The notes under the pieces were generated by a model. The model saw nothing but the letters and a program-made list of their open reading frames with translations, was not told where the DNA came from and did not search any database. Shown here piece after piece: positions 31,058-47,720 of a stretch of DNA of 64,000 nucleotides; positions within the stretch are counted from its first letter, which is position 1, and the number at the start of each line of letters is the position of its first letter. The position numbers were made by a program, and so were the translations under genes. The DNA comes from Candidatus Peribacteraceae bacterium (GTDB lineage: Bacteria; Patescibacteriota; Gracilibacteria; Peribacterales; Peribacteraceae): contig JBAZVD010000001.1 in NCBI GenBank assembly GCA_041661065.1, forward strand, positions 1,089,237-1,153,236, given 5' to 3'.

Positions 31058-33289
31058 TTACTTCAACGGCAGCCGGACGGTGAATGTTGTCCCCTTCCCG
31101 GGCTTGCTCTTGAACTCGATCTTCCCGTCCAGGTTCTCCACGATCATGCGCGTGAGGTAGAGGCCCAGACCGGAGCCGTCGGCATCCGTGCGCTTCACGT
31201 TCTTGGCGCGGAAGAATTTTTCGAACACGTGCTTCTGTTCCTCGGTGGGAATGCCCATGCCGTTGTCCGAGACGGTGATGATGGCCGTCCTCTTGAGCAG
31301 GCTGAGGTTGATCTTAATGTCCGTCCCGTTCGGGGAGTACTTCATGGCGTTCGTGAAGAGGTTCTGGAGTACAAGGTGCAGGAGGATGGGGTCGTTGGAG
31401 AGGCGGACTGCGCGCCTGGGCAGCGTGAAGGTGCACAGCAGGCCGCGCTCGCGCGCCAGCGGTTTCCACTCGTTCTCCAGATCTAGCATCAGCTTCCGCA
31501 AGTCGAAATCCCTCTTATCGGCATGGATTTCCCCGCCTTCCAGGTGGGTGATGCGCAAAAGGTCATCCAGGAGCGTGACCATGCGCTTGGAGGCGTATTC
31601 CATCTGCTCCACGAAGGATTTCTGCACATCCGAGAGTTTGGGTTCCTTCTCCTCTTGCATAAGCTCCAGGTACCACCGCAGAGAAGCGAGGGGAGTGCGC
31701 AGTTGGTGGGAGGCCAGGGCGATGAAATCGGACTTCATGGCGTCAATCTGGTTCTCCTCGCGGATATCCTGAAGAATCACCAGGATCCCCTCCAGCGTGC
31801 GCCCGTCCATGAGCGGCGTCACCGTGAGGGCCACCGGCAGCAGGATATGCTTGCCCACGAAGAGGGTGAGGTGGTCGTTGTGGAAGAAGTGGACCGCCTT
31901 CTTCTGGTGGAGCGCCTGCACCACCGGATGAGCCAGATCGCGCAGAGGTTCGTTCTTCCGGAAGAAGTGCAGGAGATTCGCCGCCACATTCCCCACAATC
32001 TCCTCGCGCGTCAGGCGGAGGACATGCTGGCCGGCGGGGTTCACGTTGATCACGGTGCCGTGGGGATTGACCACCAGGACGCCGTACTCGATGTGTTCCA
32101 GGATGGTGCGGTCGAGGAGGTACTGCCGGTGCAGCTCCTTCGTGCGTTCCTCCACTTTCTGTTCCAGGCTCGTGTAGGCCGTGCGGAGGCGGGAGGTGAG
32201 CTCGGCCGCCACCACGTCGAGGAGCTCCACTTCATCACCCGTCTGCACCGAGCGCTTGAAGGTCCAGCGCTTGGGGTTGAGGGCGCGCATCTTCTGCGCA
32301 AGGTCCATGATGGGGGAAGAGAGCTGCTTCGCCAGCACCAAGCCGAACACTCCCGTGAGGAAGACGAGGAAGAGATCGATGAACAGGAGCGTATACACGA
32401 AGCGTTCCCATCCCTGGAGGGCGTCGCTCGTATCCACTTTCAACACCATTCCCCACCCGGTCGCCGGGACGGATTGGTACGAAGCGAGGATATCCTCGCC
32501 CCATTCGTCCTTGCCCACGAACACGCCCCCCTTGCCCTTCACGGCATCGGGAATGACGAAAGTGCTCACCGGAACATCGCCGGAGGACCGGCGGGCTTGC
32601 TCCCCCGAATGGGCGTAGACCAGGGAGGCGACGCCGTTCACTTCGCGGATGATGAGCAGCTCTACGGTGGTGCCGATGGAGGGGTTATCCGAGAGGAGCG
32701 TGAAGAGCGGCTGAGGGTTGTAGCGGATGGCCAGCGTGCCGAGGAGTTCCCCTTGAGGATTGCGCACGGGCGCATAGGCATCCGTCGCCATCCACTTCCC
32801 ATGCCGGTCGAGGACCGGGCGCAGTTGCGTGGCGGTTGGGATGGCGGTGGGGAGCGGCACGTCCTCTCCGCGGTGGTCCTGCACCACGCCTTGAAGGTTG
32901 AGGAGCGTCAGACCTTCCACGGGCACCTGTTCGCTGAGCAGCCGTTCCCACAATTCCTGGAGGGGAAGGGAGGGGGTGGGAGCCTGCAAGGACCGTACGA
33001 GCGCCTCTTCGGCGCCGAGAAGCGCCGTCCTCTCGCGGTCATACTGGAGGGAACGGGAGAGCAGGTTTTCGCGGGATGCCAGGGTGGAGGAAAGCTGCCC
33101 CAAGACGCGGTTACGGATGAGAAAGAGCGCAACCACGGAAGAGAGCAGCGACAGCACCATCACCGTGAAACACGTGAGCAGAAGGGATTGCCACAGGATC
33201 CGCTTGCGGATGGAAGTGTTCTGCTCGGGGAAGTGTCGCAGGAGCACATCTCCGCTACGGGAAGCACGGCGCTGTTTGGCGGTTGGCAT
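31058..33289 (-). CDS. Sensor histidine kinase (TM - extracytoplasmic domain - TM - HAMP - PAS - HisKA - HATPase_c)
   Basis: H-box FIALASHQLRTPL; N/G boxes LQNLFTNAMKYSP, DNGMGIP and GSGLGLYLTRMIV; two TM segments flank a ~250-aa sensor domain. Confidence 0.9.
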   Translation of the reverse strand: MPTAKQRRASRSGDVLLRHFPEQNTSIRKRILWQSLLLTCFTVMVLSLLSSVVALFLIRNRVLGQLSSTLASRENLLSRSLQYDRERTALLGAEEALVRSLQAPTPSLPLQELWERLLSEQVPVEGLTLLNLQGVVQDHRGEDVPLPTAIPTATQLRPVLDRHGKWMATDAYAPVRNPQGELLGTLAIRYNPQPLFTLLSDNPSIGTTVELLIIREVNGVASLVYAHSGEQARRSSGDVPVSTFVIPDAVKGKGGVFVGKDEWGEDILASYQSVPATGWGMVLKVDTSDALQGWERFVYTLLFIDLFLVFLTGVFGLVLAKQLSSPIMDLAQKMRALNPKRWTFKRSVQTGDEVELLDVVAAELTSRLRTAYTSLEQKVEERTKELHRQYLLDRTILEHIEYGVLVVNPHGTVINVNPAGQHVLRLTREEIVGNVAANLLHFFRKNEPLRDLAHPVVQALHQKKAVHFFHNDHLTLFVGKHILLPVALTVTPLMDGRTLEGILVILQDIREENQIDAMKSDFIALASHQLRTPLASLRWYLELMQEEKEPKLSDVQKSFVEQMEYASKRMVTLLDDLLRITHLEGGEIHADKRDFDLRKLMLDLENEWKPLARERGLLCTFTLPRRAVRLSNDPILLHLVLQNLFTNAMKYSPNGTDIKINLSLLKRTAIITVSDNGMGIPTEEQKHVFEKFFRAKNVKRTDADGSGLGLYLTRMIVENLDGKIEFKSKPGKGTTFTVRLPLK

Positions 33290-33359
33290 AGTGTGTTTTC
33301 CTTATATTATAGCCTAAAACCCCATTTATCACAATAGCCTGCCAAGCGGCCAAATCCCC

Positions 33360-35069
33360 TTAGAATGCCAAGAAAAGCCTGTTACTAAACCATTCGCCGA
33401 AGGTCGCTCCATCTGCGAGCATACGACGTACTTCTTCGCATCGTTGCCGCACGGCCGGATCGGGTTCGGAGAACATCTGCCAGGGGGCGTCCAGCGGCAC
33501 CGCCGTGCAACGCTCCAGTTGTACAGTCGACACAAATGTTCGTATCCTCTCCGCATCAGGCTTCGTCATCATGAAGATGACGCGGCGGCCGTTGTCCGCT
33601 GCCAACTGTTTCCACCATCGTATCGCCACCGGATCCCGGAGCCGTTCATGCAGCACGACGCTTTGTTCGGGATCACCGTAGAGCGCTTGGAAATAGTGGA
33701 AGCCCCAATCAGCGGCCACCACCATGGAATTGCGGGCGACCGTGGGATCCAGAAGCACTTTGCGGAGCACCTCCTTTGACGAGTGTCTGCTGGGAATAAG
33801 GTTTTGGCGGGGGAATACCATGAAGTAACGGACGTTGAGGGCGAGGAAGAGCAGGAGCCATAGTCCGGTTACCGATCGTACGAAAGGCCGCACCCGTCTG
33901 CCTTTTACAACCAGCAGTCCTTTCACTGCGGCACCGATGGCGAGAAGAAGGAAGGGAAAGGTAAGAATGATATGGTGCATGCAAACGGCATTCTTCGTAC
34001 GGGCGACCATCGCAACGGTCAGCAGAAACGCGATGAACAGGGCGATGGACATCAAGACATACTCCCTCATCTCCTTCTCCTTCTTCCAGAGGACTAGCGA
34101 GAGGATCAGAAAAGCCGGAACGAACAGGAAGAGGAGAACGTAGTAGTACTGCCACAGCGGATCAAGCGGTGAAACGTAGTAGATACGCTGCGTCGCCTCT
34201 AGAGGATGCAAGAGGTACTCGAAAGCACGAGTGTGCCAGAGAGCGCCATGGAGAATTTCCCGAATGGAAAACATCTGGCTCTGGAGAAGTTGGGTGAGGA
34301 GAGGCCGCTCATTGCCTTGGAGAGGATGCGTGGAGAAAATGTACGAACCAGCCATCCCGGCACAGACGAGAATGGCGACTATGCTTTGGATAGCCAGTCG
34401 GGAACATGCGCCGCGACGAAGGAGAATTCGGCGATGACGAATGCAGGCAATGACGAAGAAGATGGCAATGCCCGGAGCGAACCAGAAATAGGAGAGCTTG
34501 ATCCAAATGCCAAGGAACATGACTACGGCAGATCCTAGTGCATAGCGCCACCGAAGAGTGGAGCACCAGCGATCGATGAGTATGTACAGGGCATAAACGG
34601 TACAAATTTGGGGCCCGACGGGACCGGTATCCACCAAGTGCTGAAAGGCATAGGGAAAGAAGAGCGAGAAGAGCACCGCAGTCACGGCAAAAGGAAAACG
34701 GAACGCGCGTGCAAACAGCGCCGCGCCCCCCATGAGGAAGAGCCAGCTGACGAGGCGTGCGGAAAGCGGACTCTTCCACAAAAGCCACAGCGGTAAGTAG
34801 TAGAGCGCGGGTATGCTGCCGACGTACAGGAACGAGCGCAACGGCAATACCAATCCCGTACCGAGGACATTCAGGGCGTGTGGATCACAATGGCCGTTGA
34901 TATCATTTCCGGGATACGCCCTGCACGCAATGATGTTGTAATAGATGAATTCATCCATGTCGTAAGGCACCACCACGGAGAAGAGCGTGACGACACAGAC
35001 GCTCGCGACCACTGTCAACACGACGGTGGTCCATGGGCGCGGAAGGAGGCGGCGGAGGGTAGGGGGCAT
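33360..35069 (-). CDS. Polytopic membrane protein, GT-C-fold glycosyltransferase candidate
   Basis: ATG at 35069 (MPPTLRRLLPRPWTTVVLTVV...). The first loop carries YDMDEFIYYN (acidic motif as in ArnT/PMT). More than 10 TM segments and a soluble C-terminal domain. Lies directly downstream of the pilin-like genes on the same strand. Confidence 0.65.
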   Translation of the reverse strand: MPPTLRRLLPRPWTTVVLTVVASVCVVTLFSVVVPYDMDEFIYYNIIACRAYPGNDINGHCDPHALNVLGTGLVLPLRSFLYVGSIPALYYLPLWLLWKSPLSARLVSWLFLMGGAALFARAFRFPFAVTAVLFSLFFPYAFQHLVDTGPVGPQICTVYALYILIDRWCSTLRWRYALGSAVVMFLGIWIKLSYFWFAPGIAIFFVIACIRHRRILLRRGACSRLAIQSIVAILVCAGMAGSYIFSTHPLQGNERPLLTQLLQSQMFSIREILHGALWHTRAFEYLLHPLEATQRIYYVSPLDPLWQYYYVLLFLFVPAFLILSLVLWKKEKEMREYVLMSIALFIAFLLTVAMVARTKNAVCMHHIILTFPFLLLAIGAAVKGLLVVKGRRVRPFVRSVTGLWLLLFLALNVRYFMVFPRQNLIPSRHSSKEVLRKVLLDPTVARNSMVVAADWGFHYFQALYGDPEQSVVLHERLRDPVAIRWWKQLAADNGRRVIFMMTKPDAERIRTFVSTVQLERCTAVPLDAPWQMFSEPDPAVRQRCEEVRRMLADGATFGEWFSNRLFLAF

Positions 35070-35107
35070 AGAGGAAAGATGCAAGAAGGATCCGCGCCGT
35101 TCTCCGT

Positions 35108-35569
35108 TCACCTCGTGATTTCCAAAAAGTTGCTGTTTTCCGCCATCCAAGCGGTCGCAGTGATGGAGCCGTCCGCATTCCGCCGCAGGGCGTACTGCGT
35201 TCCCGTACCCGTGGAGGGCAGCAGAGGATCGCGGGGGAGGACGGGGAGGTACGTCCCGATGAGCGGAGAGAGGTCCACGCCATTCTCCGCCGCGCATTCC
35301 CGGGAAGAGAGCGTCACGTTACATATTTCGCGCGATGTTCCCGCCTGCATGCCGGCGGGATACGATCCTTCTTCCGCCGCGAAGCGCGAGAGGGCGTCGA
35401 GGAGCGTCGTGAGGTCTTCTTGACGCCGTGCATCGCGGCGCTCACGAAGCTCCCCGGGAGGGAGGAAGAGGGAGAGGCCGAGGGAGAGGAGCAGGATGAC
35501 CGCGAAAAGAACGCCTGCAATCCAGGCAACGGAGCGGAAGGAGCCGACGGTATCGTGCGGTGCAGGCAT
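35108..35569 (-). CDS. Pilin-like protein lacking the class III (G/FTLIE) signal
   Basis: A TM anchor VAWIAGVLFAVILLLSLGLSLF is followed by RERRDARRQEDLTTLLDALSRFAAEEGSYP, which resembles the pilin alpha1-C helix. No G-F/V-T-L-x-E motif. Confidence 0.6.
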   Translation of the reverse strand: MPAPHDTVGSFRSVAWIAGVLFAVILLLSLGLSLFLPPGELRERRDARRQEDLTTLLDALSRFAAEEGSYPAGMQAGTSREICNVTLSSRECAAENGVDLSPLIGTYLPVLPRDPLLPSTGTGTQYALRRNADGSITATAWMAENSNFLEITR

Positions 35570-35601
35570 GGCGGGCGGCAACGACTGTACCACAGGCCCC
35601 C

Positions 35602-36300
35602 TTAAGAGGAAGAGCTGGAAGTGCTGGAACTGCTCGCGCTGCAGGGGAGATACGTCTGCGCATCGGAGCACATGAAACTCTGGCACACTTTCCACGTGTA
35701 GATCATCCCGGCGCAGCTGGGGGCGGAACACACTGCACCGCCGCACGCGGCCCCCCGCGGCTCATCGCCCGGCGGCAGTGTGAATGTTCCCTCAAACGTC
35801 CGTTCGTAGATATGGGGCGCCTGGAGGCGGATCGCCCTGCTGACGCGGAAGGAAACGCGAAAGCTTTGCAATAGGGTGGAGGCGGACGTGTTCCAGACGC
35901 GGAACTCATCCAAGGCCACTTGCGGCGAGGTGATGACCTGCTTGGTGGCGCGGCGGATGACCACCAGGGAGCCGCTGAGCGCACCGATGATGGTGGGGTT
36001 CATGGCGCCGCTCCCGGACTGGAGCGTGAGGACGATCCCTTCCTCTTGGGGAGGGGGATCCAGGATGCGTTCCGCCGCCGCAAGGCGCCCGATTTGCTGC
36101 AGCACCTGCAGGCCGTTCTGCTCCACCAGCGAAACCGTCTGTTGCAGCAGGCGGTTCTCCGTCGCCGAGAAGAGGAGCGGAAGCACCGTGAACCCCACCA
36201 CCGCGAAGATGGCGACAAAGACGAGCAATTCTATGAGCGTGACACCGGGACGCGCCAGCTTTACGGGAACGCCGGTATCGCGTGGAAGCAGGGTTATCAT
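35602..36300 (-). CDS. Prepilin-type pseudopilin (short paralog of the 988-aa protein)
   Basis: ARPG|VTLIELLVFVAIFAVVGFTVLPLLFSATENR. The ATG at 36300 overlaps the upstream stop as ATGA. About 190 aa align with the N-terminus of ORF 36297..39263. Poly-Ser tail. Confidence 0.8.
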   Translation of the reverse strand: MITLLPRDTGVPVKLARPGVTLIELLVFVAIFAVVGFTVLPLLFSATENRLLQQTVSLVEQNGLQVLQQIGRLAAAERILDPPPQEEGIVLTLQSGSGAMNPTIIGALSGSLVVIRRATKQVITSPQVALDEFRVWNTSASTLLQSFRVSFRVSRAIRLQAPHIYERTFEGTFTLPPGDEPRGAACGGAVCSAPSCAGMIYTWKVCQSFMCSDAQTYLPCSASSSSTSSSSS

Positions 36301-39263
36301 TCGGGAGCGAGAATGCAGGGACTGCATACGGCCCCCATACCTTTGACAGCACACTTGTCCGGGAAGCTTTGGAGACCGCCGCATCCGATTGCTCCCGCTC
36401 CAGGATTCTCCATGCAGAACTCACCTCCGGTAACGCATTCGTACATGCAATCGGTACTCCGCGCGGGATTCTGCCGTGGCCAGGTGCCGAAGGGCGGATA
36501 ACCGAGCTGATCCGGGCTCCACCTCGACTCACCTTCATGAGTATTGCACCAATGCTGTCCCCTGTAATCCACTACGGTTTCCGCGCTCCCGCATTCTCCA
36601 CCCTGCAGCTCCGCGATGCCGGTGTACGTTCTTTCGGTCGCCGTAGCCGACGTGACATAGCGGTAAATAGCCAACCCGCCCGAAAGCGTCGCTTCTCCCA
36701 AGAGCGTTCCCCCGTCAACGTAGAGCATCGCTTGCTGGATGGGGATGGTGTTGAGGTAAGCATCCCGGCAACTCATGGTGAGGGTCACCTGTGCGCCCGG
36801 CGCCACGGGGCCGGTGAGCACTGCACCGCCCACACTCGCCTCCAGCAAGCACGTTTCGGTGACACTGGGGCAGAAGCTGCAATCGTAGACCTGCTTCGAA
36901 CACATCCCTTTCTCCACACCGTTCACCGTCAGCGTATACGATTCCATCCCGGGCACGATACCCGCCGCGAATTGCCGGGTAGCCGTTTGGCCGTTCACGG
37001 TGGCGATTCCCCCCTCGATCTGTACGCTCCCTGCCAGCGCTTCCGTACAGGTGAAGGAAGCGATGACGTCCTCACTGGTGCAGACTTTATCCACGGGAGG
37101 CGCGAGCGTAGCTTCGGTGACGCCGTCGCAGGCACAAGTGAAGGAGGGGGTAGGTACTTCCGTACATCCGTCCACGCAAGCCTGATAGGTGCCGTATTCC
37201 GTTTCACCCACGCCGCAGGAAACGGAATACGGGCAACTGCCGCCGCAAGGCTGGCAACTCCCCATGGCGCAGGCACCGTTCATCCCCAAATTCGAAAGAC
37301 AGGGGCCCCCTTGATTTATGTAACACGTCTGTCCGTCAGGGGCTAACACTCCCGTCCCGCATTGGCCGTCCAGCGCACCTACGTAGCAGGGAACGTAGAG
37401 TGTCGTGGGGGTGGAACACTGGTCCGTGGCGGGGTCGCAGCAGTACGCGCACTCTCCGAGTATCGTCCCGCAGCTCAGGGGGCTCCCGTCCTCCTTCTTC
37501 ATGTCCACGCCGTTCACCGTGAGCACGTAGGAGTGCGTACCCGCCCCTGCGGGAGTGACATACGCCTTCACCTCGCCGTCCTGGACATAGTAAGGGTCGT
37601 TGCCGCTCACCGTAATGGTATCCGAGAGGCTAAACTCATGCGGCTCCGTTGTCCCATACCCGTCGAAGCACTCGTAATTGATGGAGAGCGTATCACCCGT
37701 ACAATAGGAACCGATGTGGGGCGTCGTATCCTCCACGGTGCACCGGCACCAATCGGGCAGGGAGAGATCCGAATACGTCACGGTGGTGGTGAGGGTGATG
37801 GGCGGACCCCCGACGGGTGTCACGTTCGCCGTGTAGGTGATGGTCCCCGCCGCCGCCGAATTCACCTGCCGCGAGGCGGTATTCGCCGCGATGACCGTGG
37901 CGGCGCCGTTGATGAAGGCGGTTTGGATATCCGCCGCCACCGGGGAACCGCCGGAGCTTTTCCAGCAGGTGAGGTTGAGGATGACGGGTTGGTTGATGTA
38001 GTACGGACCGTTCGCCGGGTTCTTGGCTTCCCACTGGCAAGTATACTGCTCAGCCGTGGGCGGCAGGTAGCAGCCGGCACCCACGTTCCACCCCAGGAAA
38101 TTGCAGAAGTTATCCCCCTCCGCATCCGGAATGCACTGCTGCCCCACGGGACAGTCCGCATCACTGCCGCATCCTCCCCCGCAGCCCGCCTGGGAAATCC
38201 AACCCGTGCAAAAACCGCCTTCGCAGACCGGGTAATCGCGCATCTGCCAAGCGGAGGTGTAACACACGGTAGGTGCACCGCAATCCGCATCGCACGTACA
38301 CGTCCTCTGGCAGAAGCCCGAAGGATTGCACATCTCGCCGGGAGGGCAGGCGCCGCACGACCCGGCACTGCTCGCCCCCCCCTGCAACAGGCACTCCGCA
38401 GTGCACCCCGTCCCCGGCGGGTCGCACTGCTCCCCCGTTTCCACCACACCGTTGCCGCAAACGGGCGCGGGTGCGCCGCAAACAGTCGTACACGCCGTTT
38501 GGGTGCTGTAGAAATCCCCCGCGAGCGCCGTGCATTCCGTTGCGGTCTTTGCCAAACAATTGTCTTCCGAACAGCAGTACCCTCCGCAATCCATGGGGAG
38601 GGACACTTCCTGGCATGCCTGTCCTTCACATACTTCCCAGGTATAGCTGCCACCCGCGCACGCGGGGGCAGCGCAGGCAACGCCTCCGCATGCCGACCCT
38701 GCCGTCCGGTCCGAAGGCGAAAGGGTGAAGAGCCCCTCAAATGTGCGCGCGTACACCCGCGGATCCTTGAACTGGATGGTGCGTTCCACCCGGAACGACA
38801 CGCGGAAACTCTGCTGGGTGGCCGAAGCGGAGGTGTTCTGGATCCGGAAATCCTTCACAACCACCTCCGATGACGTGACTTCCTGCTTCGTACGGTTGCG
38901 GATGATGATCATGGTGCCGCTCTGGACGCCGATTATGGTGGGATTCGTCGCTCCGCATCCCGTTTGGAGCGTGAGGACCGAGCCCTCCTGCTGCGGCGGA
39001 GGATCGGTGATGCGCTCCGCGTACTGGAGCCGGTAGCCGATGTTCTGAAGGACTTGCGCGCCGTTCTGCTCCACCAGCGACATGCTCTGTTGGTTCATCC
39101 TGTTTTCCGTGGCGGTGAAGAGGAGGGGGAGGACGGTGAACGCCACGATCGCGAACACCGCGACGAATACGAGCAACTCCACGAGTGTCACTCCCGGCCG
39201 CAGCCGACGGGATGCGTGCGCCGACCGCATCGGGATGACTCCGGAAGAAAGAAGAGGGGACAT
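36297..39263 (-). CDS. Giant prepilin-type pseudopilin with Cys-rich, repeat-containing C-terminal extension (adhesin candidate)
   Basis: RLRPG|VTLVELLVFVAVFAIVAFTVLPLLFTATENR. Includes a CGNGVVETGEQCDPPG module (Myxococcus-type Cys-rich repeat pattern), dozens of Cys residues, and recurring beta-rich modules (..SYVLTVNGVDMK.., ..SYTLTVNGVEKG..). Confidence 0.85.
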   Translation of the reverse strand: MSPLLSSGVIPMRSAHASRRLRPGVTLVELLVFVAVFAIVAFTVLPLLFTATENRMNQQSMSLVEQNGAQVLQNIGYRLQYAERITDPPPQQEGSVLTLQTGCGATNPTIIGVQSGTMIIIRNRTKQEVTSSEVVVKDFRIQNTSASATQQSFRVSFRVERTIQFKDPRVYARTFEGLFTLSPSDRTAGSACGGVACAAPACAGGSYTWEVCEGQACQEVSLPMDCGGYCCSEDNCLAKTATECTALAGDFYSTQTACTTVCGAPAPVCGNGVVETGEQCDPPGTGCTAECLLQGGASSAGSCGACPPGEMCNPSGFCQRTCTCDADCGAPTVCYTSAWQMRDYPVCEGGFCTGWISQAGCGGGCGSDADCPVGQQCIPDAEGDNFCNFLGWNVGAGCYLPPTAEQYTCQWEAKNPANGPYYINQPVILNLTCWKSSGGSPVAADIQTAFINGAATVIAANTASRQVNSAAAGTITYTANVTPVGGPPITLTTTVTYSDLSLPDWCRCTVEDTTPHIGSYCTGDTLSINYECFDGYGTTEPHEFSLSDTITVSGNDPYYVQDGEVKAYVTPAGAGTHSYVLTVNGVDMKKEDGSPLSCGTILGECAYCCDPATDQCSTPTTLYVPCYVGALDGQCGTGVLAPDGQTCYINQGGPCLSNLGMNGACAMGSCQPCGGSCPYSVSCGVGETEYGTYQACVDGCTEVPTPSFTCACDGVTEATLAPPVDKVCTSEDVIASFTCTEALAGSVQIEGGIATVNGQTATRQFAAGIVPGMESYTLTVNGVEKGMCSKQVYDCSFCPSVTETCLLEASVGGAVLTGPVAPGAQVTLTMSCRDAYLNTIPIQQAMLYVDGGTLLGEATLSGGLAIYRYVTSATATERTYTGIAELQGGECGSAETVVDYRGQHWCNTHEGESRWSPDQLGYPPFGTWPRQNPARSTDCMYECVTGGEFCMENPGAGAIGCGGLQSFPDKCAVKGMGAVCSPCILAPE

Positions 39264-39279
39264 GGGGGAGGAGGAAATG

Positions 39280-39705
39280 TTACGTCGTGGGACAGTTCGT
39301 GAAGGTTTTTACCTCGTTCCAAGACCGGACCTTCACCTGCGGAAACAACTGCGTCACTTCCACTTCCAGGCGCCGCAACGCGAGGCCGCTGCGCCCTTCC
39401 GCACAGAACACGTTCTCGGCGTTTGCGTTGAAACCGATCGGGAGAATGAGGCACGAGCCCCGCGGCCAGCTGTAATACTCCTGCCCGCCGTACGCCATGT
39501 CGTTGCGCGCCTCCAGAATACCTCGTTCCACGCAGGAGCGCGCGAACTCCAACGCTTGCATGGACTGCTCCACAGAATACGCCGTATGTTCCGCGGCGCC
39601 GCCCAAGAGGAGCAGGGATGCCGCGGTGGCGGCGGCAATGACCCCCACCGCGAGGACGCTGAGGAGGAACACGAAGCCGGGGCGTGATCGGGGGTTCAGG
39701 TGCAT
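39280..39705 (-). CDS. PilX-like minor pseudopilin candidate
   Basis: MHLNPRSRPGFVFLLSVLAVGVIAAATAASLLLLG (hydrophobic N-terminus after PG). 141 aa. Overlaps the upstream gene by 10 nt. Confidence 0.6.
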   Translation of the reverse strand: MHLNPRSRPGFVFLLSVLAVGVIAAATAASLLLLGGAAEHTAYSVEQSMQALEFARSCVERGILEARNDMAYGGQEYYSWPRGSCLILPIGFNANAENVFCAEGRSGLALRRLEVEVTQLFPQVKVRSWNEVKTFTNCPTT

Positions 39706-42382: not shown

Positions 42383-42558
42383 GATTGCAGCGGATGGAGA
42401 CGGCTTACCGTACTCCCGCAAAGAGAAGGGAAGGGAGAGCACTCATCGTACGATCCGCTGGAACATGCTGAAAGGTCACCCCGGCGATTGCCCTTGACCT
42501 CACGGGACACGTGTTGCATGAGCATCAGGCGGTGCCATGCTGCCGCGCTCATCCGATA

Positions 42559-43203
42559 TCAGGGACAGGGGTTCACGGGAAAACTCTCGCAGGGGCCCAG
42601 AACATCTCCGTGCTTCTGGTGGGCCGGCCACGCGTTATCGGGAATGTGAAGCGTATGCTGGGCATGCCCCTGGCAGTGGCAGACGGTCAAACGGTCGGGG
42701 AACATGATGGGGATCCCCTCCGTGGAAATGGTGATGAGGATGCTTTCCCGTTCATTCTCCAAGCCCAGGAGGAGAATGCTTCCCGTGGCGCTCGGTTTCC
42801 CTTCCAATTGCGAGTACGTGAGCTCCGTCAGGCTGCCGGATGCCGTGATGGTGGGCGGCATGGGATAGGATTCATCGTACTGCGGATCCCGCGTTTCGTA
42901 CGTACTTCCCTGAAAAAGCGTCCCTGAGGGCACATGGAATCCCCACGGAGCGGCTCCTTCACCGTTCTGGGAGAGCGTTTGCGCGCGCGCCAACGCCTGG
43001 ACCACCTGTTCCGCGCTGCGCTGGACATCGCCGCGGATGAGCAGTTGGCGCAGGAAGGGAACGGAAAGACCGGAGAGCACCGCGAGGATACCCAGGGCAA
43101 TAAGGATTTCCAACAGGGTGAAGCCCTCCTTCGCCCTCGCGAAGTGCACCCTGAGTGAAAACGGAGAAATCGGGGCTGCGGAGGGCAGGTCTCGGCGTCG
43201 CAT
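42559..43203 (-). CDS. Prepilin-type pseudopilin (GspH/FimT-like)
   Basis: RAKEG|FTLLEILIALGILAVLSGLSVPF and C-terminal TVCHCQGHAQHTLHIPDNAWPAHQKHGDVLGPC. ATG at 43203. Confidence 0.8.
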   Translation of the reverse strand: MRRRDLPSAAPISPFSLRVHFARAKEGFTLLEILIALGILAVLSGLSVPFLRQLLIRGDVQRSAEQVVQALARAQTLSQNGEGAAPWGFHVPSGTLFQGSTYETRDPQYDESYPMPPTITASGSLTELTYSQLEGKPSATGSILLLGLENERESILITISTEGIPIMFPDRLTVCHCQGHAQHTLHIPDNAWPAHQKHGDVLGPCESFPVNPCP

Positions 43204-43290
43204 GGCAGGAAGTGTAAACCATCTGCTGTCGGTTATCACCTTTACTTCTCCGGCGATCCTTCCTGCCGGTGCTCAATCCAGACTCTTCCC

Positions 43291-45579
43291 TCATTGATTC
43301 ACGCTCCCCACGATGCTGTAGATGGGCACGATGATGGCGAAGGCGATGGTCCCCACCAGCGCGCCGATGAAGAGGAGCAACATCGGTTCCAGAATCACCG
43401 GCAGTTTTTGCGCGGTCTCGTTGGCCTTCTTCTCATAGATGTCCGCGATCTTCAGCATGATCTTCGAGAGCGATCCCGTGCGTTCCCCCGTCATCACCAG
43501 CTGCTGGACGGAGAGGGGGAGGAGTTTGTTGCTCCCGCGGATGGCGGCGAAACTCTTGCTGAAGGAATCCCCCACGAGGATGTGGTCCAGCAGGCGCTGG
43601 TAAAACCTCTGGTAGGCGATGATGGTGGTCACGTCCACCAGGGAACGCAACGAATCCACCAGCGGCACGCCGGCTTGGAGCAGGCCGCCCACTATCACGC
43701 CGAAGCGCGCAATGGTGGCTTCCCAGAGGAGGGCTCCGATGCCGGGAATGCGGAAGATGAACCACTGGAACACGATCTGCAGAGGTGTGTACTTCACCAG
43801 GATCGCAAGAAGGATGGAGATCGCGATCGTGGCGGGCAAGATGGTGGTGCCATGTTCCGCAAACATGTTGGTGAAGCCGATCAAGAGCCGCGTGACCAGG
43901 GGCAGCGGCACATTGAGAGACGAGAGCACGCTGATGAGGTTGGGCAGCACGAACATCCCCAGCCCCATGATGACGATGATCATGAGGACCAGGACGATGG
44001 CGGGATAGATCATGGCCATCTTCACCTTCCCCCGCAGCGCCTCATCCTTCTCCTGCTGGCCCGACAAGTACTGCATGTTCTCCGCCAGGTTCCCCGCCTC
44101 CTCCCCGATGCGGACCAGGGCCAAGGCATCCGGCGTGAAGAAGTGCTCCATCTGCATGGCGCGCCACAGCGGGCTTCCGCTCTCCACCCTGTCCACAATG
44201 CGCTGGATGAGGGCGCGCGCCTGTCTGTTGTGCGTCTCCATTTGGAGCGTGCGCAGGGAATCGATGAGCGGCAACCCCGCATTGAGCATGGTCGCCAGGT
44301 TCTGGATGATTTGGAACCGCTCCTTCCCCATACCCACATGGCGGAGGGTATTGGTGATACCCACGAAGATGTTTTCGCGGCTGCGGAGGGAGAGCCGCTT
44401 CTTGGGGAGAGCCGTGCTGGGGACCTGCACCTGTTGCGCCGCTTCCAGTTCTTTCTTCTTCTGTGCCTCTTCTTCTTTACGGTGCTTCTCCGCCTGCTCC
44501 CGCAAGGCTTTCTCGTCTTCTTGCTGGCGCTTGCGCATCCCCTCCAGTTGTTGCTTCTCCTCGGGTGTCAGCTCCCGGGGAGGAGCGGCGTCCGCCGCTT
44601 GCGAAAGCAGCGGGGCGGGCTGCATTCCCGGGGACGGGGGGGGCAGCATTTGCTTGCGGATGAACGTTCCTCCCTGCGGTTGCAGGAATTTTCCGCCGTC
44701 CTTTTCCTGCGCCTGCAGTACGGCATCCAAGTCCACGGGGGCGCCGGGCTGTTCCTCCGCCTTCGCCGTCTTCTCCTTCCCGGGGGCGGCCGAGTCGGCA
44801 CCGAGTGGTATGTCCATGCGCACCTCTGCTGCTTTCGACCGGGAAAGAGCGGGATGCGCGCCGGGAGCGGCAGACCTGCGCCAGAAGGCGAAACGTTCCC
44901 AGAACCCCGGCTGCCTCTGTCCCGGTCGGGTGGGATGCGCTTCCACGGAAAGGATTTTCTCCCGTTCCGCGGGAGGGACTGCCGCATGAGGGGCTTCTTT
45001 GGTGAGGGGAAGGAACTCCCCTTTCCGCGGCTCTTCGGACGCGCTTCCCTCTCCCCCTTCCGCCGAGGAAAGTTCTCCTTCGCGCAGGTGCTGCGGCTTG
45101 ATTTCCCCCAGGATGGCGTCCAGGTCCACTGCGCGCAGCGTGTCCTCCACCTTTTTCCCTCCGACGGGAGGAACGGGCGGGGCCGCGGGAGGCGCGGGGA
45201 TGGACGGTTCCGATTCCTCATCCTCCAGGAGGGTCTGTGAAAGTTCTTCAGCCGGTGGCGGCTCGGCTTCTGCATCCGCGGGCGTGAGCGACGGAGGAAG
45301 TTCCAAATTCGCCGTTCCGAGCATCGCGTCCAAGTCCACCTGCCGCAGGAGCGCTTCCACGTCCTGCTTGGTCTTCCCTTCCGGATGGCTCACGGGTTTC
45401 CGGTGGCGCTTGTAATGGCGGCGCCTGCGGTGCGCCACTCCCCGCTTCCCTTCCCCGTCCTGTCCGGCTTCCTCCCCTTCCGTATGGCTTGCCATGCCCC
45501 TGCCTTTCGAGAGGAACGGCAGGAACGACCGTAGCAGCGAGAAGAATGCCGACTGTTTCCGCTCATTCTTTGTTGCCAT
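43291..45579 (-). CDS. pilC: Type IV pilus/T2SS platform protein (PilC/GspF/ComGB family) with ~360-aa low-complexity N-terminal extension
   Basis: The C-terminal ~400 aa carry two T2SSF repeats (..NLATMLNAGLPLIDSLRTL.., ..GGLLQAGVPLVDSLRSL..) and 3 TM segments. The N-terminal part is E/K/P/A-rich. Confidence 0.9.
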   Translation of the reverse strand: MATKNERKQSAFFSLLRSFLPFLSKGRGMASHTEGEEAGQDGEGKRGVAHRRRRHYKRHRKPVSHPEGKTKQDVEALLRQVDLDAMLGTANLELPPSLTPADAEAEPPPAEELSQTLLEDEESEPSIPAPPAAPPVPPVGGKKVEDTLRAVDLDAILGEIKPQHLREGELSSAEGGEGSASEEPRKGEFLPLTKEAPHAAVPPAEREKILSVEAHPTRPGQRQPGFWERFAFWRRSAAPGAHPALSRSKAAEVRMDIPLGADSAAPGKEKTAKAEEQPGAPVDLDAVLQAQEKDGGKFLQPQGGTFIRKQMLPPPSPGMQPAPLLSQAADAAPPRELTPEEKQQLEGMRKRQQEDEKALREQAEKHRKEEEAQKKKELEAAQQVQVPSTALPKKRLSLRSRENIFVGITNTLRHVGMGKERFQIIQNLATMLNAGLPLIDSLRTLQMETHNRQARALIQRIVDRVESGSPLWRAMQMEHFFTPDALALVRIGEEAGNLAENMQYLSGQQEKDEALRGKVKMAMIYPAIVLVLMIIVIMGLGMFVLPNLISVLSSLNVPLPLVTRLLIGFTNMFAEHGTTILPATIAISILLAILVKYTPLQIVFQWFIFRIPGIGALLWEATIARFGVIVGGLLQAGVPLVDSLRSLVDVTTIIAYQRFYQRLLDHILVGDSFSKSFAAIRGSNKLLPLSVQQLVMTGERTGSLSKIMLKIADIYEKKANETAQKLPVILEPMLLLFIGALVGTIAFAIIVPIYSIVGSVNQ

Positions 45580-47314
45580 GGTGAACGATGAGGTCGGGAG
45601 GCGCGGCCACGCGCAGGAGCTCTTCGATGGTGGTCATGCCCGCCTTCACCTTGGAGAAGCCGTCATCGAACATGTACTTCATCCCCTGGTCGCGGGCGAC
45701 ATTGTTGAGGTCGCTGCTGGAGGCGCGCGACACGATGAGCTGCTCCACTTCCTGCGTGATCATGAGGAGCTCGTAGATGCCCACGCGGCCTTTGTAGCCG
45801 GTGCCGTTGCACGTCTCGCATCCCTTCCCCCGGTAGAGCCGCGCCGTTTCGCCCTTGTCGAAATAATCCTGCGCGCCCAGGAACAGCTTGGAGGCTTCCG
45901 CATACGGCAGCGAGTAGCTGAAGCGGCACTGTGGGCAGATGCGGCGCACGAGGCGTTGCCCGATGACCACTTCCAGCGTGGAAGCGAGGAGGAACGGCTC
46001 CACGCCCATGTCCAGGAGACGGGGCACAGCCGTTGCGGCGTCGTTGGCGTGCAGGGTGGAGAAGAGCAAGTGGCCCGTGAGTGCCGCGTTCACCGCGATG
46101 GACGCCGTTTCGCCGTCACGGATTTCACCCACGAGGATGATGTTGGGGTCTTGGCGGACGAGCGCGCGCAACCCGGTGGCGAAGGTGAGGTTGGTATCCG
46201 GGTTCACCTGGATGTGGTTGATGCCCGGCACTTTGTATTCCACCGGATCCTCGATGGTGGAGATGTTCACGTCGGGCTTGTTGCGCATCTTCATCAGCGC
46301 GTACAGCGTGGTGGATTTCCCTGAGCCGGTGGGCCCCGTGGTGAGGATCATCCCGAAAGGCTTGTGCGCGACCTTCTCCAGTATTTCCCGGTACTCGTCG
46401 CTGAAGCCGAGGTCCAGCAGCGTGAGCGTGCGCACGTATTCGGAAAGCAAGCGGCAGACGATCTTCTCGCCGTCCACGATGGGCACGATGGAGACACGGA
46501 TGTCCATGGTGTTGTCGTTCGGCGTGCGGTAGCGGATCGCCCCGTCCTGCGCCGCGTAGTGCTCGTCGATCTGCATGTTGGATTCGATCTTGATGCGGTT
46601 CACCACCCCCTCGTAGTACTCCCGGGGAATGCGCCCCGCCTCGTGCATCACGCCGTCCACGCGGAAGCGCACCATGACGAACTTCTCCTGCGGCTCGAAG
46701 TGGATGTCGGATGCGCGGAGCTCGATGGCGTCGTTGAAGATTTCCGTGATGATCTCCGGGGCCACCTTGCGCTGCTTGGTGATGATCGCCTGGAAGCGGG
46801 TGGCGAGCGGCTTGCGGTAGTGGACGAAGAAGCTCTCAATCGCCCCGCGGGGCGCGTAGAGGAATTGGATCCTCCCCATGAACTTCTGCCGCTTCTGTTT
46901 GGCCGCCAGTTCCGCCCCTCCCGGCTGGTCGGGGAAGATGACGGCCGCCTGCCCCAAGTTCCAACGCACGCCTTCCTCCAGCTTCACGTTGCTGGGATCG
47001 GATGTGGCCACCATGACGCCGTTCTCATCCTGTTTGATCACCACGCAGCTGTAGGCGCGGGCGATCTCTTCGGGGAGCAGCGAGACGACTTCCGGCGTGG
47101 GCTGCACCTGCTGGAGGTCCGCGAACGGGAGCTTGTAGTACTCCGCGAGCGCGCTCTCGTATAAATCCTCGGTGAGGAGCCCCATCTCCACGAGCACCAC
47201 CTTCAATGTGACCGTCCGCTCCTGCGCCTGCTCCAGCGCCTGCTTGAGTTCCTCCTCGCTCACATAGCTTTGCTCCACGAGAATTTTCCCGAGATCGGCG
47301 TCGTTCAGGGGCAT
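45563..47314 (-). CDS. pilB: Type IV pilus assembly ATPase (PilB/GspE/ComGA family)
   Basis: T2SSE_N domain, Walker A GPTGSGKSTT, Asp box, Walker B ILVGEIRD, His box, and tetracysteine CPQC...CETCNGTG. Confidence 0.95.
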   Translation of the reverse strand: MPLNDADLGKILVEQSYVSEEELKQALEQAQERTVTLKVVLVEMGLLTEDLYESALAEYYKLPFADLQQVQPTPEVVSLLPEEIARAYSCVVIKQDENGVMVATSDPSNVKLEEGVRWNLGQAAVIFPDQPGGAELAAKQKRQKFMGRIQFLYAPRGAIESFFVHYRKPLATRFQAIITKQRKVAPEIITEIFNDAIELRASDIHFEPQEKFVMVRFRVDGVMHEAGRIPREYYEGVVNRIKIESNMQIDEHYAAQDGAIRYRTPNDNTMDIRVSIVPIVDGEKIVCRLLSEYVRTLTLLDLGFSDEYREILEKVAHKPFGMILTTGPTGSGKSTTLYALMKMRNKPDVNISTIEDPVEYKVPGINHIQVNPDTNLTFATGLRALVRQDPNIILVGEIRDGETASIAVNAALTGHLLFSTLHANDAATAVPRLLDMGVEPFLLASTLEVVIGQRLVRRICPQCRFSYSLPYAEASKLFLGAQDYFDKGETARLYRGKGCETCNGTGYKGRVGIYELLMITQEVEQLIVSRASSSDLNNVARDQGMKYMFDDGFSKVKAGMTTIEELLRVAAPPDLIVHHGNKE

Positions 47315-47339
47315 GGAAAGGGAACGGGGGAGGAGGGGT

Positions 47340-47720
47340 TCACTCGAGCGCCGCTTTGACGCGCTTCACGATGTTCGCAATGGGCGTGTTGGCTTTGACG
47401 AAGTAATCGATGACGCCGAGCCCCTTGGCCTTCTGCTTGTCCTCGTCGAGGCCCAGGTTGCTGAGCACAAGCACGGGCGTCTTGACCTTCTTCTTGGACA
47501 TCTCCTGGAGAAGCGCAAACCCGTCCACCTCCGGCATGATGATGTCCAGGAGGATGATGGAGTACTTCCCCGTAATGGCTTCCTTCATGCCTTCGGGGCC
47601 GGTGAGACAAACGGTGACGTCGAACCCCTCGCGCTTGAGCTTGAGCTCCAGTGCGTGGGCGAGCGGCCGCTCGTCCTCCACGATGAGGATTTTCTGGGAA
47701 CTTGATGTGCGTGTAGCCAT
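47340..47720 (-). CDS. Single-domain response regulator (CheY-like receiver)
   Basis: KILIVEDE...SIILLDIIMPEVDGFALL...PVLVLSN...K (D-D-T/S-K receiver pattern). No output domain. Confidence 0.9.
   Translation of the reverse strand: MATRTSSSQKILIVEDERPLAHALELKLKREGFDVTVCLTGPEGMKEAITGKYSIILLDIIMPEVDGFALLQEMSKKKVKTPVLVLSNLGLDEDKQKAKGLGVIDYFVKANTPIANIVKRVKAALE

What the first reader, a model, noticed from the sequence alone, without database searches (positions are those of the whole stretch)
31058..47720. A 16.7-kb single-strand comG-like / type IV pilus operon: receiver, ATPase, platform, seven pilin-like genes, GT-C membrane protein, histidine kinase
All genes from 47720 down to 31058 are on the minus strand, with tiny gaps or overlaps. 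ATGA occurs at 36297-36300, TTGA at 41177-41180, a 17-nt pilB/pilC overlap and a 10-nt overlap at 39696-39705.

The ATPase-platform-pseudopilins order matches the Gram-positive comG / T4P layout (established). The content is unusual:
- No small canonical major pilin.
- Five proteins with G|(F/V)T(L/F)(L/I/V)E signals ranging from 214 to 988 aa.
- One beta-propeller pilin.
- One Cys-rich giant.
- One pilin-like protein without a cleavage motif.
- A signalling pair (CheY-like receiver first, sensor kinase last) framing the operon.

No PilM/N/O, PilT or secretin genes are in the window. The prepilin peptidase is 5 kb away (52793..53563).

In a small-genome, possibly episymbiotic lineage this apparatus is a good candidate for host attachment and/or DNA uptake (inference).
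Basis: partly seen in the sequence, partly recalled or inferred. Interest (0 to 1): 0.7.

Follow-up and report, generated by a model that had tools for sequence, protein, structure and literature searches.

The report
Peribacteria type IV pilus operon
This is the type IV pilus gene cluster shared by Peribacteria (ultra-small, probably symbiotic bacteria), with bulky adhesin-like domains fused to its minor pilins; it is a real but largely expected system, with one oddity: the usual shaft subunit has lost its processing and assembly signal in this lineage.

Summary
Twelve co-directional minus-strand genes (47720 to 31058) encode: a stand-alone receiver, PilB, PilC, seven pilin-like proteins, a 569-aa membrane protein and a histidine kinase. 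Every quoted overlap is correct, and PilD sits at 52793-53563.

The genome is a Candidatus Peribacteraceae MAG (CPR). The same gene order recurs in 14 fully covered loci from other Peribacteria, and in the published Ca. Peribacter riflensis genome. So this is the lineage's standard type IV pilus locus, not a one-off.

The pilins sort into four conserved minor-pilin families:
- p214/p401.
- p490, a pilin fused to a 7-bladed propeller.
- p141, which lacks Glu5.
- p232/p988.

A major pilin follows them. "No canonical major pilin" is true only for this clade. p153 is the ortholog of a highly conserved small pilin, but it carries G|SFRSV instead of G|FTLIE. It is still under purifying selection.

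It lies in the operon only here and in the sister species.

"comG-like" is not supported: the ATPase and platform score as PilB/GspE and PilC/GspF. Propeller-bearing and modular pilins are already described, including in Saccharibacteria.

Verdict: a new member of a known kind, of moderate interest.

The parts
47340..47720 (-). Stand-alone CheY-like receiver (126 aa), first gene of the operon
   Evidence: Pfam Response_reg 1.3e-19 and no output domain. The acidic pocket (E15, D16), D59, S87 and K109 are visible in the translation. It lies upstream of PilB in 18 related loci. dN/dS versus L005 is 0.11.
45563..47314 (-). PilB-type extension ATPase (583 aa) with N-terminal MshEN domain
   Evidence: T2SSE 7.8e-120; MshEN 1.6e-13. 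TIGR02538 PilB scores 515 bits, GspE 487 and ComGA 249, all below the equivalog cut-offs. Walker A (GPTGSGKST) and the CxxC...CxxC motif are in the translation. dN/dS is 0.06.
43291..45579 (-). PilC/GspF platform protein (762 aa): ~400-aa low-complexity N-terminal extension plus two T2SSF domains
   Evidence: T2SSF 6.6e-47, two stretches, within residues 425-760. GspF and HofC score 213 bits. The extension holds three VDLDA(M/I/V)L motifs, found only in the window clade.
42559..43203 (-). p214: minor pilin, family A (FimU/GspH-like by weak hits), signal G|FTLLE
   Evidence: N_methyl 8.8e-06. 45% identical to the N-terminal 190 aa of p401. Family alignment A4. PDB profile hits cover only the alpha-1 helix. 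NCBI names it a prepilin-type domain protein.
41177..42382 (-). p401: family A minor pilin with a ~200-aa C-terminal extra module, signal G|FTFVE
   Evidence: N_methyl 1.4e-04. Orthologs of ~420 aa occur in most related loci, and reach 790-960 aa in L021, L023 and Ca. P. riflensis gene 999.
39696..41180 (-). p490 (490 or 494 aa, depending on a GTG or TTG start): pilin helix + small sheet + 7-bladed LVIVD beta-propeller, signal G|FLLVE
   Evidence: Homologs carry PF08309 LVIVD. The AF2 model (pLDDT 80) shows helix 21-77 and a propeller at 163-481. Foldseek matches 7-bladed propellers. In the GTDB scan all 24 loci are Peribacteria/Peregrinibacteria. The exhaustive search finds many full-length ~460-510-aa representatives.
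39280..39705 (-). p141: small pilin-like protein with G|FVFLL, no Glu5; candidate cap subunit
   Evidence: The absence of Glu5 is conserved in all 21 family members, with four conserved Cys. No Pfam, NCBIfam or PDB sequence relatives.
36297..39263 (-). p988: family B pilin module (~205 aa) plus a ~760-aa Cys-rich extension (73 Cys), signal G|VTLVE
   Evidence: 63% identical to p232 over 205 aa. Cys count. Present only in the window and L005. The L005 ortholog has a weak DUF4215 hit at 259-289, and the L006 giants carry 4-10 DUF4215 repeats. dN/dS is 0.20.
35602..36300 (-). p232: family B minor pilin (core, single copy in relatives), signal G|VTLIE
   Evidence: N_methyl 1.6e-03 and weak GspI hits. 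Family alignment A5 has a conserved C-terminal Cys cluster. Present in all covered loci.
35108..35569 (-). p153: diverged ortholog of the Peribacteria major pilin; keeps Gly-1 but has SFRSV in place of FTLIE
   Evidence: Alignment A7 shows a conserved globular domain, G9 aligned to G-1, and Glu5 lost. Relatives have canonical pilins at this position, and these form a very large, highly conserved family. dN/dS versus L005 is 0.28. The family profile reaches GspG 5wda over positions 10-112.
33360..35069 (-). 569-aa polytopic membrane protein with a GT-C glycosyltransferase fold (orphan family)
   Evidence: No Pfam hit. AF2 pLDDT 91. The top 27 Foldseek PDB hits are all GT-C: STT3, PglB, AglB, DPY19, AftD, Emb. 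D39-E40 after TM1 are near-invariant and D454 is invariant. It is in the operon only in the window and L005; elsewhere it lies beside a class A PBP.
31058..33289 (-). Membrane sensor histidine kinase (743 aa), last gene
   Evidence: PAS_4, HisKA and HATPase_c. The H-box SHQLRTP and the N, G1 and G2 boxes are in the translation. It ends the operon in 17 related loci. A promoter-like site lies at 33334-33306, but such sites are not above chance.
52793..53563 (-). Prepilin peptidase PilD (256 aa), ~5 kb upstream of the operon
   Evidence: A24_N_bact + Peptidase_A24. The same relative position is seen in L016, L017, L018, L024, L025 and L027, and in Ca. P. riflensis gene 988.

Best explanation
This is the Peribacteria version of a monoderm-type type IV pilus machine, inherited vertically within the class.

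Proposed mechanism
1. PilD (5 kb upstream) cleaves the five prepilins that carry a class-III signal.
2. The PilB ATPase, working on the PilC platform, assembles them.
3. Four conserved minor-pilin families form the priming/tip complex. These are A = p214/p401, p490, the Glu5-less p141 as cap, and B = p232/p988.
4. Several of these carry grafted modules: the 7-bladed propeller on p490, the C-terminal domain of p401 and the 760-aa Cys-rich stalk of p988. The pilus tip would therefore display a changeable set of adhesin-like domains for attachment to another cell or surface.
5. A dedicated sensor kinase and a receiver without an output domain bracket the operon. They most likely tune pilus activity through protein contacts rather than through transcription.

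Changes specific to this clade (window, L005, L006)
- The operon-borne major pilin has lost Phe1/Glu5 (p153), or is absent (L006).
- A family B pilin was duplicated and enlarged into p988.
- A GT-C glycosyltransferase gene moved in next to p153.
- So the shaft subunit must be either an orphan pilin elsewhere in the genome or one of the remaining pilins.

Shown: gene identities, folds, synteny, purifying selection and the motif loss. Inferred: tip location, adhesion, the mode of regulation and the shaft identity.
For: - Domain and family hits for PilB, PilC, PilD, the receiver, the kinase and the pilins.
- Five class-III signals, confined to the operon.
- Conserved order RR-PilB-PilC-A-p490-p141-B-major pilin(s)-HK in 14 fully covered Peribacteria loci, and in the complete Ca. 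P. riflensis genome, genes 988 and 996-1004.
- Ca. P. riflensis has PilT and ComEC elsewhere in its genome.
- p490 is modelled as a pilin plus a propeller.
- Lack of Glu5 is conserved across the p141 family.
- p153 is orthologous to the canonical pilins but has lost the motif.
- All twelve genes have dN/dS of 0.06-0.29 against the sister species.
- The variable large modules at the A and B positions differ between loci.
- Precedents: the propeller-bearing minor pilin PilX2 is needed for host binding in Saccharibacteria TM7x. Modular pilins are widespread. Peribacteria are rich in large Cys-rich exported proteins proposed to act in attachment.
Against: - No filament, expression or processing data exist.
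- No polymerisable small pilin is encoded in the 64 kb or within 10 kb of the operon in L005 and L006. A search with a canonical Peribacteria pilin returned no close copy from this genome among its best 120 hits.
- No PilM/N/O or PilT is in the window, whereas many CPR pilus loci include them.
- The globular parts of families A, B and p141 have no detectable relatives. Their assignment to H/I/J/K-like roles rests on order, size, presence or absence of Glu5 and weak N-terminal hits.
- The promoter and terminator scans are not above chance, so a single transcript is not shown.
Confidence: 0.8

Rival explanations
1. An ordinary pilus whose shaft gene lies elsewhere. The window clade simply moved its functional major pilin to another locus. 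p153 is a redundant leftover that took on a minor role, and the operon otherwise works exactly as in other Peribacteria.
For: - Ca. P. riflensis has orphan GspG-like genes outside the operon: gene 102 (score above threshold) and gene 82 (weak).
- In TM7x, the major pilin pilA2 lies in a different locus from its assembly machinery.
- All the machinery genes are under strong purifying selection.
Against: - None of the 120 best hits to a canonical Peribacteria pilin comes from the 1,377,411-bp contig of this genome. More divergent pilins would not appear in that list.
- p153 is still conserved (dN/dS 0.28) rather than decaying.
Confidence: 0.45
2. A short tip-only pseudopilus. In this clade the machine no longer builds a long fibre. 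It only pushes out the minor-pilin complex carrying the propeller and Cys-rich adhesins, in the way a T2SS or Com pseudopilus works. The former major pilin becomes an uncleaved membrane-anchored accessory, possibly glycosylated by the adjacent GT-C enzyme.
For: - The motif is lost in p153 and the gene is absent in L006, while giant Cys-rich pilins were gained in the same clade.
- The GT-C gene relocated next to p153 only in the window and L005.
- There is a precedent for a GT-C enzyme encoded downstream of a pilin: TfpW.
Against: - The argument rests on co-occurrence in only two or three genomes.
- An orphan pilin elsewhere has not been excluded.
- The GT-C family's ancestral neighbourhood is cell-wall synthesis.
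- There is no N-X-S/T sequon enrichment in the pilins except p490.
- The GT-C family has no sequence-profile link to oligosaccharyltransferases.
Confidence: 0.15
3. A competence (Com-like) DNA-uptake pilus, as the reader's 'comG-like' label suggests.
For: - The layout is ATPase, platform, then pilins in a single operon.
- ComEC is present in Ca. P. riflensis.
- CPR bacteria are thought to rely on DNA uptake.
- There are weak ComGE/ComGC/ComGF hits to the N-terminal helix.
Against: - The ComGA, ComGB and ComGC models all fall below their cut-offs and are outscored by PilB/GspE and GspF.
- The ATPase has the long N-terminal region that ComGA lacks.
- No comEA or comEC lies in the window.
- The bulky propeller and Cys-rich modules fit adhesion better.
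- Peribacteria can make their own nucleotides.
Confidence: 0.1
4. A decaying, non-functional remnant in this lineage.
For: - The major-pilin ortholog lacks the residues needed for assembly.
- No PilT or PilMNO lies nearby.
Against: - All ORFs are intact in two species, with dN/dS of 0.06-0.29.
- The catalytic motifs of PilB, the receiver and the kinase are intact.
- The same proteins are recovered from several independent assemblies.
Confidence: 0.03

Closest known systems
Type IV pilus locus of Ca. Peribacter riflensis (genes 988, 996-1004; Anantharaman et al. 2016, PMC4736985)
   Same: - The locus is orthologous. The order on one side is PilD, SmpB ... RR, PilB, PilC, a large FimU-like pilin, a ~500-aa pilin, a 141-aa hypothetical, a ~216-aa pilin and the HK.
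- The downstream genes also match: tRNA-Thr, rfbP, DinG and NusA.
   Different: - P. riflensis has a canonical 149-aa GspG-like major pilin, where the window has p153 with the motif lost.
- Its PilC is 402 aa, without the 400-aa extension.
- It has no GT-C gene and no 988-aa Cys-rich pilin in the operon.
Saccharibacteria TM7x T4P-2 with the minor pilin PilX2 (Grossman et al. 2024, PMC11623550)
   Same: - It is a CPR pilus with small major pilins and elaborate minor pilins.
- One minor pilin carries a C-terminal 7-bladed beta-propeller and is needed for host binding. This parallels p490.
   Different: - TM7x loci include PilM/N/O, and the major pilin lies in a separate locus.
- No framing kinase/receiver pair is described there.
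- No sequence relationship to p490 was tested here.
Modular pilins (S. sanguinis PilB/PilC; Raynaud et al. 2021, PMC8179133)
   Same: An N-terminal pilin module carries a functional module grafted onto its C-terminus, presumed to be displayed at the tip for adhesion. CPR examples are listed in that survey.
   Different: The modules here (an LVIVD propeller, a DUF4215-like Cys-rich region and the p401 C-domain) differ from the vWA and lectin modules studied there. Nothing has been tested experimentally.
PilY1 plus the FimU-PilVWX minor pilins of T4aP / GspH-I-J-K of T2SS
   Same: - A set of about four minor pilins includes one without Glu5.
- A beta-propeller adhesin sits at the tip.
- (The roles of GspK/PilX and of PilY1 are from established knowledge.)
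   Different: - Here the propeller is fused to a pilin rather than being a separate non-pilin protein.
- The globular domains show no detectable sequence similarity.
- There is no secretin or PilMNOP.
TfpW, the GT-C pilin arabinosyltransferase encoded downstream of pilA in P. aeruginosa group IV (bioRxiv 10.1101/2020.04.19.049825)
   Same: A multi-TM GT-C enzyme with an acidic motif in its first external loop, encoded immediately after a pilin gene.
   Different: - No sequence similarity was shown, and there is no TPR domain.
- The adjacency exists only in the window and L005.
- The family normally neighbours a class A PBP.

Membership tests
Type IV filament superfamily (type IV pilus) | PilB/GspE-family extension ATPase | tested here: met
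   T2SSE 7.8e-120. PilB and GspE are the top NCBIfam hits. Walker A and the tetracysteine motif are in the translation.
Type IV filament superfamily (type IV pilus) | PilC/GspF platform protein with two T2SSF domains | tested here: met
   T2SSF 6.6e-47, two stretches.
Type IV filament superfamily (type IV pilus) | Prepilin peptidase (A24) | tested here: met
   A24_N_bact + Peptidase_A24 at 52793-53563.
Type IV filament superfamily (type IV pilus) | Subunits with a class-III signal peptide (Gly-1, hydrophobic alpha-1, Glu5) | tested here: met
   Five proteins carry it.
Type IV filament superfamily (type IV pilus) | A small, polymerisable major pilin | tested here: not met
   Within the window, the ortholog p153 lacks Phe1 and Glu5. 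Relatives have canonical copies. The rest of the genome could not be searched.
Type IV filament superfamily (type IV pilus) | A filament is actually assembled | not testable with these tools
   This needs microscopy or proteomics.
Com (ComG) competence pilus | ComGA, ComGB and ComGC equivalogs | tested here: not met
   ComGA scores 249 against a cut-off of 300, ComGB 123 against 240, and ComGC 18.5 against 75. All are outscored by the PilB/GspE/GspF models.
Com (ComG) competence pilus | Linked DNA receptor and channel (ComEA/ComEC) | tested here: not met
   Neither is among the annotated window genes. ComEC exists elsewhere in Ca. P. riflensis.
Diderm T4aP / T2SS | Secretin and PilMNOP or GspC/L/M | tested here: not met
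   No such domains are in the window. CPR bacteria lack PilQ in general.
Retractile T4P | PilT retraction ATPase | tested here: inconclusive
   It is absent from the window. It is present elsewhere in Ca. P. riflensis, as gene 77.
Modular pilins | A pilin module followed by an independent extra domain | tested here: met
   - p490: helix, sheet and propeller.
- p988 and p401: homology to their short paralogs stops at ~205 and ~190 aa.
GT-C glycosyltransferases | Multi-TM GT-C fold | tested here: met
   The AF2 model has pLDDT 91. The top 27 Foldseek hits are all GT-C, with E down to 2.9e-06, although TM-scores are only 0.33-0.44.
GT-C glycosyltransferases | Conserved acidic motif in the first extracytoplasmic loop | tested here: met
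   D39-E40 in VPYNMDEF, directly after TM1, are >=90% conserved. The loop's sidedness is inferred.
GT-C glycosyltransferases | Membership of a named family (STT3/PglB, PMT, Emb, TfpW ...) | tested here: not met
   No Pfam hit for the window protein. Only 4 of 29 members hit PMT_2 weakly and 1 hits GtrII. There is no PDB sequence-profile hit.
Two-component system | HisKA/HATPase kinase and a receiver with the phospho-acceptor Asp | tested here: met
   with the motifs read. That the two are cognate partners is inferred from conserved co-location.

The most novel reading that the evidence does not exclude
In one Peribacteraceae clade, the pilus machine has given up its polymerising major pilin. 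It now works as a short tip-only device that presents giant Cys-rich and propeller adhesins. The former major pilin has been converted into an uncleaved membrane-anchored protein, and it is the substrate or partner of an orphan, OST-like GT-C glycosyltransferase that moved in beside it.
Probability: 0.12. Interest if true: 0.6.

Novelty: new member of a known kind. Interest (0 to 1): 0.35.

Why it matters
Type IV pili are the best candidate for how CPR/Patescibacteria find and hold their hosts, and only Saccharibacteria have been tested.

This work defines the Peribacteria pilus locus gene by gene. It assigns six proteins now annotated as 'hypothetical' to pilin families or to a GT-C fold. It also shows which parts are conserved core (four minor-pilin families, the major pilin and a dedicated kinase/receiver pair) and which are fast-changing adhesin modules. 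That gives concrete targets for host-range studies.

The clade-specific loss of the major-pilin signal, with the gene kept under selection, is a small natural experiment on what a pilin can become. The result is useful but incremental. It does not open a new class of system.

Tried and rejected
1. Locating a major pilin elsewhere in this genome.
- A search with a canonical Peribacteria pilin gave >5176 hits. None of the best 120 came from the 1,377,411-bp contig, so the result is inconclusive for divergent pilins.
- Walking beyond the window failed. The window starts ~270 nt from a contig end, and two right-edge proteins were not on record.

2. Classifying the minor pilins by sequence. PDB profile searches for families A, B and p141 hit only the alpha-1 helix, or nothing. 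H/I/J/K-like labels are therefore not justified by homology.

3. The GT-C protein as an N-oligosaccharyltransferase.
- The Foldseek top hits are STT3/PglB/AglB, and a VV-D-W-G motif resembles WWDYG.
- But there is no profile link, and no N-X-S/T enrichment except in p490 (8 against 3.8 expected, uncorrected p~0.016).
- This is kept only as a lead.

4. Pfam on the p988 and p401 extensions found nothing. Only the L005 ortholog gives a sub-threshold DUF4215 hit.

5. Operon boundaries from promoter and terminator scans. Counts were not above the shuffled expectation.

A 7-sequence alignment worked.

7. The decay hypothesis was rejected on dN/dS.


Full report
**Observation**

The region 31058-47720 holds twelve minus-strand genes with short gaps or overlaps.
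- ATGA at 36297-36300.
- TTGA at 41177-41180.
- The 17-nt overlap at 45563-45579.
- The 10-nt overlap at 39696-39705.

Pfam and NCBIfam identify the following:
- A receiver-only response regulator.
- A PilB/GspE-type ATPase with an MshEN N-terminal domain.
- A PilC/GspF platform protein.
- N-terminal methylation motifs on four pilin-like proteins, above Pfam's cut-off for p214 and p401 only.
- A PAS-HisKA-HATPase_c kinase.

The prepilin peptidase is at 52793-53563.

A six-frame scan finds five class-III signal motifs with Glu5 in the 64 kb, all inside the operon. The seven pilin-like genes are:

| Gene | Length (aa) | Signal or feature |
|---|---|---|
| p214 | 214 | G\|FTLLE |
| p401 | 401 | G\|FTFVE |
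| p490 | 490 | G\|FLLVE |
| p141 | 141 | G\|FVFLL, no Glu5 |
| p988 | 988 | G\|VTLVE, 73 Cys |
| p232 | 232 | G\|VTLIE |
| p153 | 153 | G\|SFRSV, no Glu5 |

The annotated genes of the window contain no PilT, PilM/N/O or secretin domain.

**Source organism**

The proteins are identical to those of NCBI MAGs named Candidatus Peribacteraceae bacterium, on a contig of 1,377,411 bp. They also occur in ENA and Logan assemblies.

**Conservation across Peribacteria**

A scan of one genome per GTDB species with the p490 family returned 24 loci, all Peribacteria or Peregrinibacteria. tblastn of the window proteins against these loci gives the same order in the 14 loci that are covered end to end:

receiver, PilB, PilC, one or two family A pilins (p214/p401-like), p490, p141, one family B pilin (p232-like), one or two small pilins, kinase.

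PilD lies about 3.3 kb upstream of the receiver in six of these loci.

The supplementary gene table of the first complete Peribacteria genomes (PMC4736985) shows the same locus in Ca. Peribacter riflensis: PilD is gene 988 and the operon is genes 996-1004. It is followed by tRNA-Thr, rfbP, DinG and NusA, as in the window. PilT (gene 77), ComEC (gene 739) and orphan GspG-like genes (genes 82 and 102) lie elsewhere in that genome. That paper mentions type IV pilus genes only in one sentence, and it notes many large Cys-rich exported proteins.

**The pilin-like proteins**

- p214 and p401 share their first ~190 residues (45% identity).
- p232 and p988 share their first ~205 residues (63% identity).
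- So there are four families plus p153.

p490 was modelled with 18 homologs (pLDDT 80). It has a long N-terminal helix, a small sheet and a 7-bladed propeller, and it matches generic 7-bladed propellers in the PDB. Its homologs carry LVIVD repeats. An exhaustive profile search shows many full-length ~460-510-aa representatives, so the fused architecture is not rare.

The p141 family keeps Gly-1 and an aromatic +1 residue, but it never has Glu5 and it has four conserved Cys. From established knowledge, the Glu5-less subunit is the one that caps the minor-pilin complex in T2SS (GspK) and related systems. The assignment here is an inference.

The globular parts of families A, B and p141 have no detectable solved relatives.

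The large modules vary between loci:
- Family A proteins range from 190 to 960 aa.
- L006 carries a 1237-aa ORF whose p141-like N-terminus is fused to a Cys-rich region with ten DUF4215 (Myxococcus cysteine-rich) repeats. It also has a 901-aa Cys-rich membrane protein.
- L021 has two arylsulfotransferase-like proteins inserted in the operon.

**The 'missing' major pilin**

In 14 related loci, the genes homologous to p153 are canonical small pilins: RRG|[52 protein letters not shown]..., about 135 aa mature, often in two tandem copies. This family is very large and strongly conserved: a search gave more than 5176 hits, and the best 120 were all at least 67% identical. Its profile reaches GspG beyond the helix.

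The alignment shows the following for window p153 and its L005 ortholog:
- They keep the globular-domain signature.
- They keep the glycine that aligns with Gly-1.
- They have SFRSV(A/L)W where the others have F--TLIEL.
- They have lost Phe1 and Glu5, and the leader is no longer basic.

L006, the next relative, has no ortholog at all. Neither L005 nor L006 has a short canonical pilin within 10 kb of the operon.

The gene is not decaying. Nei-Gojobori dN/dS between the window and L005 is 0.28 for p153, and 0.06-0.29 for all twelve genes.

But it reflects a change specific to the clade, not the design of the system. Which subunit forms the shaft here stays open.

**The membrane protein**

It has no Pfam or NCBIfam hit. 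It does have about 47 homolog clusters, all without Pfam domains; the few that carry a source name are Peribacteria or Peregrinibacteria MAGs.

- The AlphaFold model is confident (pLDDT 91).
- Its 27 best PDB matches are all GT-C glycosyltransferases: STT3, PglB, AglB, DPY19, AftD and EmbA/B/C. E-values reach 2.9e-06, though TM-scores are only 0.33-0.44.
- An Asp-Glu pair directly after the first helix is nearly invariant, as expected for GT-C enzymes.

The gene is inside the pilus operon only in the window and L005. In the two other Peribacteria examined, the homolog follows a class A penicillin-binding protein. A role in pilin glycosylation, by analogy with TfpW encoded downstream of pilA, is possible but unsupported:
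- There is no profile link to oligosaccharyltransferases.
- There is no sequon enrichment in the pilins, apart from a weak signal in p490.

**Signalling pair**

The receiver has all the canonical residues and no output domain. The kinase has intact H, N and G boxes. Their positions at the two ends of the operon are conserved.

This differs from PilS/PilR, where the regulator is a transcription factor. It resembles the CheY-like regulators that act on the pilus motor. That comparison comes from established knowledge, and the mechanism here is inferred.

**Comparison with known systems**

The ATPase and the platform protein score as PilB/GspE and GspF, not as ComGA/ComGB, and no ComGC-like pilin is present. 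'comG-like' therefore applies to the gene layout only.

The system fits the monoderm/CPR type IV pilus described by Meheust et al., but without PilM/N/O nearby.

A propeller-bearing minor pilin needed for host binding has been shown in Saccharibacteria. Modular pilins are known to be widespread, including in CPR.

The operon is thus a new, well-resolved member of a known kind. Its clade-specific peculiarities (the degenerate major pilin, p988 and the GT-C insertion) are modestly interesting and unexplained.

**Public annotation**

NCBI names only p214, p232, PilC and the receiver. p401, p490, p141, p988, p153 and the GT-C protein are listed as 'hypothetical protein'.

Noticed in passing
window 44400-45579 (N-terminal ~400 aa of PilC): PilC carries a long Pro/Glu/Ala-rich extension with three copies of a VDLDA(M/I/V)L motif. 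Extensions of varying length (to 600-1122 aa in total) occur in most relatives, but the motif is found only in the window, L005, L006 and L007. Ca. P. riflensis PilC is 402 aa.
   Followed up: partly
window, 30 nt upstream of each operon start codon: No Shine-Dalgarno-like purine run precedes any of the twelve starts. Several leaders are C-rich instead, for example cctcctccccc before pilB and p988.
   Followed up: no
L006:11897-15608 and L006:4758-7463: A related Peregrinibacteria operon holds a 1237-aa ORF whose p141-like (Glu5-less) N-terminus is fused to ten DUF4215 Cys-rich repeats. It also holds a 901-aa, 68-Cys membrane protein directly after PilC.
   Followed up: partly
L021:6973-9917: Two tandem ~490-aa membrane proteins with arylsulfotransferase (ASST) domains are inserted between the family A pilin and the p490 homolog of this relative.
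   Followed up: no
L029:4728-9692, L031:4678-9656: Outside the window clade, the orphan GT-C family gene lies directly downstream of a class A PBP (Transgly+Transpeptidase+Big_7). This hints at an ancestral cell-envelope role.
   Followed up: partly
window 33360-35069 (residues ~452-458): The GT-C family has an invariant Asp in a V-V-D-W-G-like motif just after the last transmembrane helix, similar in position to the WWDYG motif of oligosaccharyltransferases. There is no sequence-profile support for this link.
   Followed up: partly
window 39696-41168 (p490): p490 has eight N-X-S/T sequons against 3.8 expected from shuffles (uncorrected p~0.016). No other operon protein is enriched.
   Followed up: partly
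window 54554-56566: A 670-aa protein next to PilD has a central transmembrane helix and no Pfam hit. Its function is unknown.
   Followed up: no
L008:13251-13666: The second tandem major-pilin copy in this relative appears to be split into two reading frames. This is either a frameshift or an assembly error.
   Followed up: no
window 1-300: Both an ENA contig and an NCBI contig of this organism end about 270 nt before the window start. The window therefore begins near a recurrent assembly break.
   Followed up: no
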